Shown: piece after piece, positions 8,733-64,000 of the stretch
Numbering within the stretch: the first letter of the stretch is position 1
How the letters are laid out: every line of letters begins with the position of its first letter
Assembly (NCBI RefSeq): GCF_022846255.1
Contig: NZ_AP025682.1
Origin: Escherichia coli
GTDB lineage: Bacteria; Pseudomonadota; Gammaproteobacteria; Enterobacterales; Enterobacteriaceae
Strand: one strand, 5' to 3'
DNA length: 64,000 bases
Program-made: the position numbers and the translations under genes
The notes under the pieces: model-generated
Told to the model about the DNA's origin: nothing
The model's database searches: none
What the model saw: the letters and a program-made list of their open reading frames with translations, nothing else

Positions 8733-10084
8733 GTCCCATTCTCCTGTAAAGCGCGTACTACCTCTTCCATGGCAGCACTACGTGAACCCTTAACTAAAAT
8801 CGTAATTACCTGTTGCTCAGCAATCAGTGATTTAAGACGTGTGATAAGCGCAGTTTTATCGGCAAAATGTTCGCCAATGCCGCTGGCGGTACTGATAGCA
8901 TGGCTTTGTTTACCCACACTTAACACACGGTCAATACCCGCCGCCTTCGCCGCTTCGCCCACCTGTACATGGCAGGCCTCGCTTTCAGCGCCCAGTTCCG
9001 CCATATCGCCCACCACCAGCACACGGTAGCCCGGCATTTCAGCCAGTACCTGAACAGCGGCGGTCATGGAGCCGACGTTAGCGTTGTAGGAGTCGTCGAG
9101 CAGCAACTGATTTTCCGCCAGTTGAATGGGGAACAGACGGCCAGGAACAGCTTTCAGATTTGCCAGCCCCGCTTTAATAGCATCAAGCGTTGCGCCCACG
9201 GACATGGAGAGCGCAGCGGCTGCCAGCGCATTCGCAATATTGTGACGCCCCGGCAACGGCAGCAGAACATCGACGCTACCCGTTGGGGTTTGCAGCGTAA
9301 ATTCCGTACCGTGCGAGGTCACGTGGATATTGGTGGCGGTGAAATCGCTGTTGTTAGCATTCGGTGAGAAGCGCCACACTTTGCGTGAGCCAATCACACT
9401 CTGCCAGTTCAGCCAGTCGTTGTTGTCGGCATTCATAATGGCGATACCGTTTTCCGGCAGACCGGTAAAGATTTCGCCTTTCGCTTTCGCGACCCCCGCA
9501 AGCGAGCCAAAACCTTCCAGATGCGCCGCCGCCAGATTGTTGACCAGCGCCGCTTCCGGGCGAGTCAGACTCACAGTCCAGGCAATTTCACCCTGATGGT
9601 TTGCACCAAGCTCAATAACTGCGTAATCGTACTCTGGCGTTAAGCGCAACAGCGTCATCGGTACACCGATGTCGTTGTTGAGATTGCCTGCCGTATAAAG
9701 CGTGTTGCCACACTGGCTTAAAATCGCTGCCGTCATCTCTTTAACGGAGGTTTTGCCGGAGGAACCGGTCAGAGCAACCACGCGCGCCGGAACTTGCTGG
9801 CGAACCCATGCAGCCAGTTCACCAAACGCCAGACGAGTATCCTTGACGATTACCTGCGGCAGATCGATATCCAGCGGACGGCTGACCAGTAGTGCGCCCG
9901 CGCCGCCAGCTTTCGCCTGGTCGGCAAAATCATGAGCATCGAAACGTTCGCCTTTCAGGGCAACAAACAGGCAGCCCGGCGTCAGTTTTCGCGTGTCAGT
10001 GGTTACAGCATCAAGGGTGATATCTGCACCTTGCAGTTCACCGTTGAGAATATCGGTAAGTTGGCTAAGGGTTACGCTAATCAT
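8726..10084 (-). CDS. murF: UDP-MurNAc-tripeptide--D-alanyl-D-alanine ligase
   Basis: Track ORF, 452 aa; Mur ligase P-loop GSSGKTS. Confidence 0.96.
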
Positions 10085-61252: not shown

Positions 61253-62023
61253 TTAAATGACTTTGCGAAGATTTTCAGCAAATGCGGCGATCTGTTCTTC
61301 GCCGTCGCCTTCAATCACGATGCGCTGACGCTCGCGCTGTTTCGGCGCGGCAACCTGTTGTTCTGACCAGGCTGCCTCTGCGTTAAAACCGATATCCGCC
61401 GCCGACCATACCTGGACTGGCTTTTTCGCCGCGCCGAGAATGGCTTTCATCGAAGGAATTTGTGGGGAGTTGATATCAGTGGAAACAGCAACAACCGCAG
61501 GCAGCGGAATGCTTAACGTTTCTGTTTCATCTTCCAGTTCGCGCTCAACGGTGAGGGTATCTGCCGTCAGGGAGATAATTTTGCTGACGCCGTTAACTGC
61601 CGGAATATTGAGGATTTCGCCTACCAGCAAACCAACCTGCTGGGCATAAAGGTCGGAAGAACCATCGCCACAGAGGATCAAATCAAAGCCTGCTTTCTGG
61701 GCGGCTGCAGCCAGTGCGCTCGCCGTTTGTTGCGGCAGTGCCTGCTCGAACTGGTCATCAATCACCACAATCAGTTCATCCGGACCGCGCGATAGCACAT
61801 CTTTACGCCCTTTGGCGTTGGTCAGGGCTTTACCGCCCACACTTAAGGCCGTCACCTGCGCCTCTGCTGCCTGTTGCTTTAGCTGGCAAGCCGCTTCAAT
61901 AGCGTTGAGATCGTATTGGCTTATTTTGGCATCGGCTTTGCTGAAGTCTAACGAACCATCAGCATTATTGACCGCAATATCCTGTTCATCAGGCACGCAC
62001 TTATAGCAAGTAATAATCTTCAT
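61253..62023 (-). CDS. fixA: Electron transfer flavoprotein beta-subunit homolog FixA
   Basis: Track ORF 61253..62086 trimmed to [25 protein letters not shown]... (256 aa). Confidence 0.93.
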
Positions 62024-62115
62024 TGCATCTCCAGAAATCATGAAGGAAACGTCGTTCATATCGGTGGTGTTAATTACAGATATCACGCCCTTTAATTTGG
62101 AAATAAAACTTTAAT

Positions 62116-62245
62116 CACCAATATTGAAAATGTCACACGCAGATAAATCCAACTTTCAATATTGTTAAGCTCCTCACCAATATTGAAAACATGGCGTAAA
62201 AAAAAGAAATTTTCAATATTGTTTTATGGATCACCAATATTGAAA
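62116..62245. promoter_or_regulatory. Five copies of the palindromic octamer CAATATTG in the fixA-caiT divergent control region
   Basis: CACCAATATTGAAA at about 62116, 62175, 62232 and TTTCAATATTGTT at about 62154, 62211; AT-rich intergenic region between divergent operons. Confidence 0.6.
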
Positions 62246-62492
62246 GTCAGATGCTATTTTTTTACTCACAACAGAGCATAACAAAATGATTAATAATCAA
62301 AATTAACGAAAAAATGCCCTCTATTCACCCGAAACAAAAATGTGATAACAATCACAGAATGCAGCTTATTGAATACCCATTATGAGTTAGCCATTAACGC
62401 GTCCACGAGGTTAATAATAATTATATTAAATGTTAACAAAAATAAAACAAACGGGAACGCAAAATAAATATTCGTTTTCACAGTGGAATTAA

Positions 62493-64000
<1,508 letters not shown>

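What the first reader, a model, noticed from the sequence alone, without database searches (positions are those of the whole stretch)
62116..62245. Five evenly spaced copies of the palindrome CAATATTG in the fixA-caiT divergent promoter region
The motif CACCAATATTGAAA occurs three times and TTTCAATATTGTT twice within about 130 bp, so a self-complementary octamer CAATATTG recurs five times at roughly 20-38-bp spacing. This looks like an array of operator half-sites for a dimeric regulator of the carnitine (cai) and fix operons (CaiF, CRP or FNR are candidates from the literature; exact assignment not verified here).
Basis: partly seen in the sequence, partly recalled or inferred. Interest (0 to 1): 0.35.

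Follow-up and report, generated by a model that had tools for sequence, protein, structure and literature searches.

The report
CaiF activator sites, cai–fix promoter
The five CAATATTG repeats between fixA and caiT are real: four are the two published binding sites of CaiF, the carnitine-pathway activator, so this is textbook regulation, but the fifth is a solitary copy inside the fixA core promoter that is conserved across about a dozen genera and is not mentioned in any paper I could read.

Summary
Observation confirmed. CAATATTG occurs at 62119, 62157, 62178, 62214 and 62235, against 1.48 copies expected in the whole 64-kb window. The spacing is 38/21/36/21 bp, so the copies are not evenly spaced.

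The window is E. coli. fixA starts at 62023 on the minus strand and caiT at 62496 on the plus strand.

Copies 2+3 (62154-62188) and 4+5 (62211-62245) each read TTTCAATATTG-N13-CAATATTGAAA. This is the published CaiF operator: sites F1 and F2 of Buchet et al. 1999, as quoted in PMC12083890 and PMC3680233. Each 13-bp spacer holds a CRP-like site. A perfect CRP site lies at 62341-62356. No FNR consensus is present.

Copy 1 (62114-62129, ATCACCAATATTGAAA) has no partner 13 bp away and lies in the predicted -10/-35 spacer of the fixA promoter. In 40 cai-fix loci with both gene starts, its 14-mer is intact or nearly so in 13 of 14 CaiF-bearing lineages while its flanks diverge. It is the only copy in Edwardsiella, and the motif is absent where no CaiF gene is seen. 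CaiF belongs to the CaiF/GrlA family, and GrlA acts from a promoter spacer. A GrlA-like role for copy 1 is plausible but untested.

The parts
62114..62129 (.). Solitary ('orphan') CaiF-type half-site ATCACCAATATTGAAA (core CAATATTG at 62119-62126). It has no partner 13 bp away and lies inside the predicted fixA core promoter.
   Evidence: The position where a partner would sit (62095-62105, ATTTGGAAATA) matches TTTCAATATTG at 4 of 11 bases (read directly). The copy fills the 17-bp spacer of the predicted promoter. The 14-mer TCACCAATATTGAA is 14/14 in Escherichia, Salmonella, Citrobacter, Pseudocitrobacter, Pluralibacter, RIT691, Shimwellia, Proteus, Providencia and two Edwardsiella-type loci, while the 30-nt flanks fall to 7-18/30 in the distant genera. 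Genus-weighted identity is 0.88, against 0.57-0.64 for the flanks.
62154..62188 (.). fix-proximal full CaiF site, TTTCAATATTG-N13-CAATATTGAAA (cores at 62157 and 62178). It is one of the published sites F1/F2; which of the two was not determined here.
   Evidence: Sequence (inverted repeat I3). Published consensus as quoted in PMC12083890 and PMC3680233. Conserved in all 35 enterobacterial cai-fix loci found by the genome scan, although that scan selected for this pattern.
62163..62178 (.). CRP-like site TGTTAAGCTCCTCACC, concentric with the fix-proximal CaiF site (centre 62170.5). Inferred to be the CRP site at -69.5 of fixAp.
   Evidence: 2 mismatches to TGTGA-N6-TCACA. The conservation pattern is that of a CRP site: the arms TTA and TCAC are conserved and the central 6 bp are not. 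The RegulonDB v8 paper says fixAp has a CRP pair with the proximal site at -69.5.
62211..62245 (.). cai-proximal full CaiF site, TTTCAATATTG-N13-CAATATTGAAA (cores at 62214 and 62235). It is the other published F site.
   Evidence: inverted repeat I6: 11-nt arms, 100% complementary, 13 nt apart. Present in Escherichia, Salmonella, Citrobacter and Proteus. Absent in Pluralibacter, Atlantibacter, RIT691 and Shimwellia.
62220..62235 (.). Second nested CRP-like site, TGTTTTATGGATCACC (centre 62227.5, 57 bp from the first).
   Evidence: 3 mismatches. The 57-bp offset equals the difference between the remembered positions -126.5 and -69.5. Those positions come from memory of the Buchet 1999 abstract, which I could not read here.
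62341..62356 (.). Perfect CRP site TGTGATAACAATCACA (centre 62348.5), inferred to sit at -41.5 of the cai promoter.
   Evidence: 0 mismatches; the only perfect match in the window. Both arms are conserved across genera.
62108..62136 (-). Predicted fixA promoter: -35 GTGACA (62136-62131), 17-bp spacer, -10 TAAAGT (62113-62108). Inferred transcription start at 62101.
   Evidence: Consensus scan. The start at 62101 fits CRP at -69.5. It also fits the remembered, unverified 289-bp separation from a cai start at 62390.
62101..62109 (.). Conserved block AAATAAAAC next to the solitary copy. It may be the true -10 of the fix promoter (minus strand TTTTAT; TATTAT in Edwardsiella, TTTAAT in Proteus).
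   Evidence: Genus-weighted identity 0.91. Sequences. Function not resolved.
62378..62383 (+). Inferred -10 of the cai promoter (CATTAT), with the inferred start at 62390.
   Evidence: Strongly conserved block CCCATTAT. The geometry fits the CRP site at -41.5. The start itself was not verified here.
61253..62023 (-). fixA (electron transfer flavoprotein FixA).
   Evidence: translation [15 protein letters not shown]...; RefSeq annotation of the same locus.
62496..64000 (+). caiT (L-carnitine/gamma-butyrobetaine antiporter); runs off the end of the window.

Best explanation
The five CAATATTG octamers are the recognition cores of CaiF, the pathway-specific activator of the divergent caiTABCDE and fixABCX operons of E. 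coli. Copies 2+3 and 4+5 form the two published CaiF operators (F1 and F2). Each is an 11-bp inverted repeat with a 13-bp spacer, which puts the two cores 21 bp, or two helical turns, apart. Each spacer holds a CRP-like site concentric with the CaiF site, so each unit is a composite CaiF-CRP-CaiF element. By my reconstruction these units are centred near -70 and -127 of the fix promoter. A separate perfect CRP site sits at -41.5 of the cai promoter. With cAMP-CRP and the carnitine-derived effector (crotonobetainyl-CoA according to PMC12083890), CaiF bound at these sites switches on both promoters. That much is established knowledge, matched here to the sequence. The fifth copy is a solitary half-site of the same extended sequence (TCACCAATATTGAA). 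It lies in the fix core promoter, about -13 to -28 from the inferred start. Its conservation shows it is under selection as a CaiF-type site. The following step is inferred, not shown: I think it most likely binds CaiF at the promoter itself and contributes to fix activation from the -10/-35 spacer, as reported for its family relative GrlA at LEE1.
For: The copies match the published operator TTTCAATATTG-N13-CAATATTGAAA exactly, twice. The locus is the E. coli fixA-caiT intergenic region. An exact-pattern scan of 100,044 species genomes found the motif in Enterobacterales only at cai-fix intergenic regions (35 loci); the other 85 hits were coding or AT-rich chance matches. Loci sampled through CaiT homologues, independently of the motif, show the motif wherever a CaiF_GrlA gene is in the locus (Providencia, Shimwellia, two Edwardsiella-type loci). 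It is absent from the region upstream of fixA and caiT where no such gene is seen (Shewanella, L128, Campylobacter). Nested CRP-like sites show a CRP-type conservation pattern, and the RegulonDB paper places a CRP pair at fixAp with the proximal site at -69.5. For the solitary copy: it is 14/14 in 12 lineages while the flanks fall to 7-18/30; the genus-weighted profile gives 0.88 against 0.57-0.64; its distance to the first full site is constant at 38-40 bp, and its distance to the fixA ATG is about 96 nt except in Citrobacter sedlakii (82) and the two Edwardsiella-type loci (255, 263); it is the only copy in the two Edwardsiella-type loci. It fills the spacer of the predicted fix promoter. 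CaiF matches Pfam CaiF_GrlA (26.6 bits, cut-off 25) and PDB GrlA 4kt5_C (E 0.0035). GrlA is described as binding the 18-bp -10/-35 spacer of LEE1 and acting like MerR.
Against: The papers I could read mention only two CaiF sites (F1, F2). If the 1999 footprints covered the fix promoter and showed no protection there, the solitary copy is at best a weak site in vitro. I could not read Buchet 1998 or 1999. The fix transcription start is reconstructed, not read. It rests on the -69.5 quoted, on my memory of the figures 289 bp and -41.5, and on a consensus promoter scan that found no more sites than shuffles did. The conserved block TTTTAT would be an alternative -10 and would shift the solitary copy to about -19 to -34. 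The predicted spacer is already an optimal 17 bp, unlike the suboptimal 18-19 bp that the MerR and GrlA mechanisms correct. A site inside a core promoter more often represses than activates. Entomohabitans has lost the copy.
Confidence: 0.9

Rival explanations
1. The solitary fifth copy is a non-functional relic. The array arose by tandem duplication of a 57-59-bp unit, and copy 1 is the truncated end of a third unit that happens to survive.
For: The array is 2.5 copies of a 57-59-bp unit (D1 and D2). The number of full sites varies among genera: none in Edwardsiella, one in Pluralibacter, Atlantibacter, Shimwellia and RIT691, two in Escherichia, Salmonella and Citrobacter, three in Proteus. 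This shows units are gained and lost. Accessible literature names only two CaiF sites.
Against: A relic would decay. Instead the 14-mer is 14/14 from Escherichia to Proteus, Providencia and Edwardsiella, while adjacent sequence drops to 7-18/30. It stays about 96 nt from the fixA start in most genera, the exceptions being Citrobacter sedlakii (82) and the two Edwardsiella-type loci (255, 263). It persists where all full sites are gone.
Confidence: 0.12
2. The solitary copy is a negative operator. CaiF bound between -10 and -35 blocks RNA polymerase and caps or delays fix expression, for example at high CaiF levels or without effector.
For: It lies inside the core promoter, and sites there usually repress (general knowledge). 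The predicted spacer is already optimal at 17 bp, so a MerR-type correction is not obviously needed.
Against: CaiF is known only as an activator of fix and cai. The fix promoter is used as a CaiF-activated biosensor. In Edwardsiella-type loci it is the only CaiF-type site, so there it would have to carry whatever positive control CaiF exerts.
Confidence: 0.2
3. Each 8-bp palindrome CAATATTG is a complete dyad-symmetric site for a CaiF dimer, not half of a site. The published 11-N13-11 operator would then be two dimers flanking CRP, and the 'orphan' would be an ordinary full site.
For: The core is a perfect palindrome in all five copies and in nearly all the genera sampled. The two cores of a published site are 21 bp apart, far for one small dimer (131 aa). 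A single copy is conserved on its own and is the sole copy in Edwardsiella.
Against: The conserved flanks are asymmetric (TCAC on one side, GAA on the other), which suits one protomer reading about 14 bp. An HTH dimer normally needs half-sites about 10 bp apart (general knowledge). The published model is one protomer per 11-bp half-site (AlphaFold3 legend).
Confidence: 0.2
4. The octamers are half-sites of CRP or FNR, or simply preferred AT-rich sites of a nucleoid protein such as H-NS, rather than of CaiF.
For: CRP and FNR both influence cai and fix, and H-NS represses carnitine metabolism. The region is AT-rich at 31% G+C.
Against: CAATATTG matches neither TGTGA-N6-TCACA nor TTGAT-N4-ATCAA. 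The only FNR-like hit in the region is the CRP site itself. The published CaiF operator is this exact sequence. The motif tracks the presence of a CaiF gene across taxa.
Confidence: 0.02

Closest known systems
CaiF operator sites F1 and F2 of the E. coli cai-fix regulatory region (Buchet, Nasser, Eichler & Mandrand-Berthelot 1999, Mol Microbiol 34:562; quoted in PMC12083890 and PMC3680233)
   Same: Copies 2+3 and 4+5 are these sites: the same 11-bp arms, the same 13-bp spacer, the same locus.
   Different: Copy 1 has the same extended half-site sequence but no inverted partner at 13 bp. It lies in the fix core promoter rather than upstream of it. The papers I could read do not mention it.
GrlA at the LEE1 P1 promoter of EHEC/EPEC (Islam et al. 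2011, as described in PMC10877973 and PMC4856446)
   Same: Same protein family as CaiF (Pfam PF07180 CaiF_GrlA; PDB 4kt5 GrlA is the only solved relative). [quoted passage not shown]
   Different: The LEE1 spacer is a suboptimal 18 bp, while the predicted fix spacer is 17 bp. No binding of CaiF to copy 1 has been shown. GrlA has no reported upstream sites of the F1/F2 type and is controlled by GrlR rather than by a small molecule.
MerR-family activators bound in the promoter spacer
   Same: A dyad-symmetric site centred near -22, between the -35 and -10 hexamers (the copy 1 core is centred at -21.5 on the reconstructed numbering).
   Different: CaiF is not a MerR-family protein. MerR operators are about 18-20-bp palindromes in 19-20-bp spacers. 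This is an analogy of position only.
Tandem CRP sites at about -69.5 and -122.5 of acs P2
   Same: The RegulonDB v8 paper states that fixAp has a CRP pair at similar positions. Here they are the two CRP-like sites 57 bp apart.
   Different: At fixAp each CRP site is nested inside a CaiF inverted repeat, so the two proteins share the same 35 bp.

Membership tests
CaiF operator (F-site) | Two 11-bp arms, TTTCAATATTG and CAATATTGAAA, in inverted orientation | tested here: met
   Exact at 62154-62164/62178-62188 and at 62211-62221/62235-62245. Copy 1 supplies only the right arm.
CaiF operator (F-site) | 13-bp spacer between the arms | tested here: met
   13 bp in both pairs (I6). For copy 1: not met. 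The nearest arm is 24 bp away (I5), and the position 13 bp to its left matches 4 of 11 bases.
CaiF operator (F-site) | Located in the cai-fix divergent regulatory region of a genome that encodes CaiF | tested here: met
   fixA and caiT flank the array. caiF lies beyond the end of the window but is present downstream of caiE in the 99.6%-identical E. coli locus L121 and matches PF07180.
CaiF operator (F-site) | Protected by CaiF in gel-shift and DNase I footprint experiments | not testable with these tools
   Known only through secondary quotation of Buchet 1999. The primary papers are not held. Nothing is known for copy 1.
CRP site | Match to TGTGA-N6-TCACA | tested here: not met
   The octamer itself does not match. 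Separate sites do: a perfect one at 62341-62356, and sites with 2 and 3 mismatches at 62163-62178 and 62220-62235 inside the CaiF spacers.
FNR site | Match to TTGAT-N4-ATCAA | tested here: not met
   With up to 2 mismatches, the only hit in the intergenic region is the CRP site GTGATAACAATCAC (L121 9818-9831).
Spacer-binding activation (GrlA/MerR-like), considered for copy 1 | Activator site lies between the -35 and -10 hexamers of the regulated promoter | tested here: inconclusive
   True for the predicted promoter and for the start reconstructed from CRP at -69.5. The start was not read from primary data, and a conserved alternative -10 would move the site onto the -35.
Spacer-binding activation (GrlA/MerR-like), considered for copy 1 | Suboptimal spacer length (18-20 bp) that the activator compensates | tested here: not met
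   The predicted spacer is 17 bp. This weakens the claim of the same mechanism but does not bear on binding.
Spacer-binding activation (GrlA/MerR-like), considered for copy 1 | The regulator belongs to a family with a documented spacer-binding member | tested here: met
   CaiF matches PF07180 CaiF_GrlA and GrlA chain 4kt5_C. GrlA spacer binding is described in PMC10877973 and PMC4856446.

The most novel reading that the evidence does not exclude
The solitary CAATATTG copy inside the fixA core promoter, not the published upstream sites F1 and F2, is the ancestral and most widely conserved CaiF operator. CaiF bound there would activate fix from the -10/-35 spacer as GrlA does at LEE1, which would make spacer binding a shared mechanism of the CaiF/GrlA family. 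The upstream composite CaiF-CRP units would then be lineage-variable amplifiers, present in zero to three copies.
Probability: 0.3. Interest if true: 0.5.

Novelty: already known. Interest (0 to 1): 0.27.

Why it matters
The main feature is the textbook CaiF/CRP control region of carnitine metabolism, so it adds nothing new in itself. The fifth copy could matter in three modest ways. First, it would add a promoter-embedded CaiF site to a regulon described for 25 years as having two sites. Second, it would link CaiF mechanistically to GrlA, a virulence regulator whose spacer-binding mode is unusual. Third, the fix promoter is the sensing element of current L-carnitine biosensors (PMC12083890), so an unrecognised CaiF site within its core promoter bears directly on their engineering.

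Tried and rejected
1. CRP or FNR as the protein reading the octamer: rejected by consensus scans.

2. An RNA element: no Rfam match of any weight in 61900-62650 (best E 0.46, to eukaryotic miRNA families).

3. Further CaiF regulon members: the exact-pattern scan of the species genomes gave no convincing non-cai locus. The Gilliamella, Ignatzschineria and Pseudomonas hits are coding sequence, the Thiofilum hits are a repeated element, and the Providencia burhodogranariea hit is an AT-rich ssu intergenic region with no cai or CaiF gene in the locus.

4. A CaiF site upstream of caiF itself: there is no CAATATTG in the caiF-carB intergenic region of L121.

5. A degenerate left partner that would make copy 1 a third full site: 4 of 11 matches at the 13-bp position, so rejected.

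6. Reading the primary papers (Buchet 1998, PMC107209; Buchet 1999 by DOI): not held. A full-text search for the motif found only the 2025 biosensor paper.

7. Deciding the true fix -10, TAAAGT or the conserved TTTTAT block: not resolvable from sequence.

Full report
**1. What is in the sequence**

- The palindrome CAATATTG occurs at 62119, 62157, 62178, 62214 and 62235. The whole 64-kb window holds 8 copies, against 1.48 expected from dinucleotide shuffles.
- None of 20,000 shuffles of the AT-rich intergenic region (31% G+C) gave more than two copies.
- With flanks, the units are ATCACCAATATTGAAA three times (62114, 62173 with one change, 62230) and TTTCAATATTGTT twice (62154, 62211).
- The start-to-start spacing is 38, 21, 36, 21 bp. 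The copies are therefore not evenly spaced: there are two closely spaced pairs 57 bp apart, plus one extra copy. Together they form 2.5 repeats of a 57-59-bp unit.
- The other three copies in the window (7227, 9235, 52198) lack the flanks and are at chance level.

**2. Where it is**

- fixA runs on the minus strand with its ATG at 62023. caiT runs on the plus strand with its ATG at 62496.
- The 472-bp region between them is found in 5391 of 5426 complete E. coli genomes, with a best identity of 99.6%.
- In one such genome the RefSeq annotation reads fixXCBA, then caiTABCDE, then caiF on the opposite strand. caiF itself lies beyond the end of the window.

**3. What four of the copies are**

- Two open-access papers quote Buchet et al. 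1999. [quoted passage not shown] Each site consists of two 11-bp inverted half-sites separated by 13 bp, 5'-TTTCAATATTG-N13-CAATATTGAAA-3' (PMC12083890; PMC3680233).
- Copies 2+3 (62154-62188) and 4+5 (62211-62245) match this exactly.
- The octamer is not a CRP or FNR half-site.
- CRP is nevertheless part of the same architecture:
  - A perfect site, TGTGATAACAATCACA, lies at 62341-62356.
  - Each 13-bp CaiF spacer, together with the edges of its arms, reads as a CRP-like site: 62163-62178 TGTTAAGCTCCTCACC and 62220-62235 TGTTTTATGGATCACC.
  - Across genera the arms of these nested sites (TTA and TCAC) are conserved and the central six bases are not. This is the signature of a CRP site.

**4. 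Promoter geometry (partly reconstructed)**

- The RegulonDB v8 paper says fixAp carries a CRP pair like that of acs P2, with the proximal site at -69.5.
- If that site is 62163-62178 (centre 62170.5), the fix start is 62101.
- From memory of the Buchet 1999 abstract, which I could not read, the two starts are 289 bp apart, with CRP at -41.5 of cai and at -69.5 and -126.5 of fix.
- These numbers fit the sequence exactly. The perfect CRP site centred at 62348.5 puts the cai start at 62390, behind a strongly conserved CATTAT. 62390 minus 289 is 62101. The two nested CRP-like sites are 57 bp apart.
- The consensus scan independently proposes a minus-strand promoter: -35 GTGACA (62136-62131), a 17-bp spacer, and -10 TAAAGT (62113-62108). 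That scan found no more sites than shuffles did, so it is supporting evidence only.
- On this numbering the two CaiF/CRP units are centred near -70 and -127 of fix.

**5. The fifth copy**

- Copy 1 (62114-62129) has the full extended sequence of a right-hand half-site but no partner. The position 13 bp to its left matches 4 of 11 bases, and the nearest arm is 24 bp away.
- It fills the 17-bp spacer of the predicted fix promoter. Its core is at -18 to -25 and its centre at -21.5.
- None of the papers I could read mentions it, and a full-text search for the motif found only the 2025 biosensor paper.

**6. Comparative evidence**

- 35 of these are cai-fix loci, from Escherichia, Salmonella, Citrobacter, Proteus, Atlantibacter, Pluralibacter, Pseudocitrobacter, Intestinirhabdus, Entomohabitans and an unnamed enterobacterium. 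The rest are coding or AT-rich chance hits.
- The scan selected for a full site and not for the solitary copy. Yet the solitary copy is present in 30 of the 31 scan loci that hold both gene starts. It lies 38-40 bp (core to core) from the first full site and about 96 nt from the fixA ATG (82 in Citrobacter sedlakii).
- I also sampled loci through CaiT homologues, independently of the motif:

| Locus | Solitary copy | Full sites |
|---|---|---|
| Salmonella enterica | present | two |
| Shimwellia blattae | present (one change in the 11-mer) | one |
| Providencia rettgeri | perfect | degenerate |
| Edwardsiella ictaluri and a related contig | the only copy | none |
| Shewanella, an unnamed contig, Campylobacter (no CaiF_GrlA gene in the locus) | absent | none |

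- The 14-mer TCACCAATATTGAA is 14/14 in twelve lineages, while the 30 nt on either side fall to 7-18/30 in the distant ones.
- Genus-weighted identity to the window is 0.88 for the solitary copy, against 0.57-0.64 for its flanks.
- Only Entomohabitans has lost it.
- The number of full sites varies from none to three. The three in Proteus are spaced 59 bp apart.
- The solitary copy is therefore the most widely conserved CaiF-type element.

**7. How it most likely works**

- Established: CaiF at F1 and F2 together with cAMP-CRP activates both promoters under anaerobiosis with carnitine.
- Inferred: the solitary copy is a working CaiF site at the fix promoter itself.
- CaiF matches Pfam CaiF_GrlA, and its only solved relative is GrlA (4kt5).
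- This gives a family precedent for activation from exactly this position.

Points against, or unresolved:
- The predicted fix spacer is already 17 bp.
- Sites in core promoters more often repress.
- Only two sites are reported from the 1999 footprints.
- A conserved block next to the copy (62101-62109, identity 0.91; minus strand TTTTAT, TATTAT in Edwardsiella, TTTAAT in Proteus) could be the real -10. That would shift the copy to about -19 to -34, over the -35.
- Each core is a perfect palindrome, which leaves open that each copy is a complete site for a dimer rather than a half-site.

**8. Verdict**

- The main feature is already known (CaiF sites F1 and F2, with nested CRP sites).
- The one addition is a deeply conserved solitary CaiF-type site inside the fixA core promoter. 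Its function is untested and, as far as I could check, undescribed.

Noticed in passing
window 62101-62109: The block AAATAAAAC beside the solitary copy is as conserved as the CaiF sites (genus-weighted identity 0.91). On the fix strand it reads TTTTAT (TATTAT in Edwardsiella, TTTAAT in Proteus). It may be the true -10, which would conflict with the start reconstructed at 62101.
   Followed up: partly
window 62024-62100: The fixA leader is well conserved (0.73). The distance from the solitary copy to the fixA ATG is about 96 nt from Escherichia to Proteus, but 82 in Citrobacter sedlakii and 255-263 nt in Edwardsiella-type loci. No Rfam match.
   Followed up: partly
L023, L076, L112, L118, L119 (Proteus); L040, L078, L103, L031, L124; L125, L127: The number of full CaiF sites differs by lineage: three in Proteus (59-bp period), two in Escherichia, Salmonella and Citrobacter, one in Pluralibacter, Atlantibacter, RIT691 and Shimwellia, none in Edwardsiella. 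This indicates gain and loss of a 57-59-bp unit.
   Followed up: yes
L125 about 9740-9790 (Edwardsiella ictaluri cai promoter region): Where E. coli has the perfect CRP site, Edwardsiella has TTGATTAAGATCAC, one mismatch from the FNR consensus, upstream of CATTATAAT. This suggests direct FNR control of cai in that lineage.
   Followed up: no
L086 (Entomohabitans teleogrylli), about 150-170 nt from the fixA ATG: At the place of the solitary copy the sequence is TCACCCGACGTCGCTGAA. The flanks are kept, but the core is replaced by a different palindrome (CGACGTCG).
   Followed up: no
L126 8767-9873 (Shewanella algae): An unannotated 368-aa ORF sits between fixA and caiT. No CaiF_GrlA gene and no CAATATTG motif are present in the 21-kb locus, so carnitine genes there must be regulated differently.
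   Followed up: no
window 7227, 9235, 52198: Three further CAATATTG copies in G+C-rich context, without the TCAC/GAA flanks of CaiF sites. They are consistent with chance (1.48 expected).
   Followed up: partly
L097-L099 (Thiofilum flexile): The same 120-bp stretch carrying the search pattern recurs on three scaffolds, so it looks like a repeated or mobile element. Unrelated to cai.
   Followed up: no
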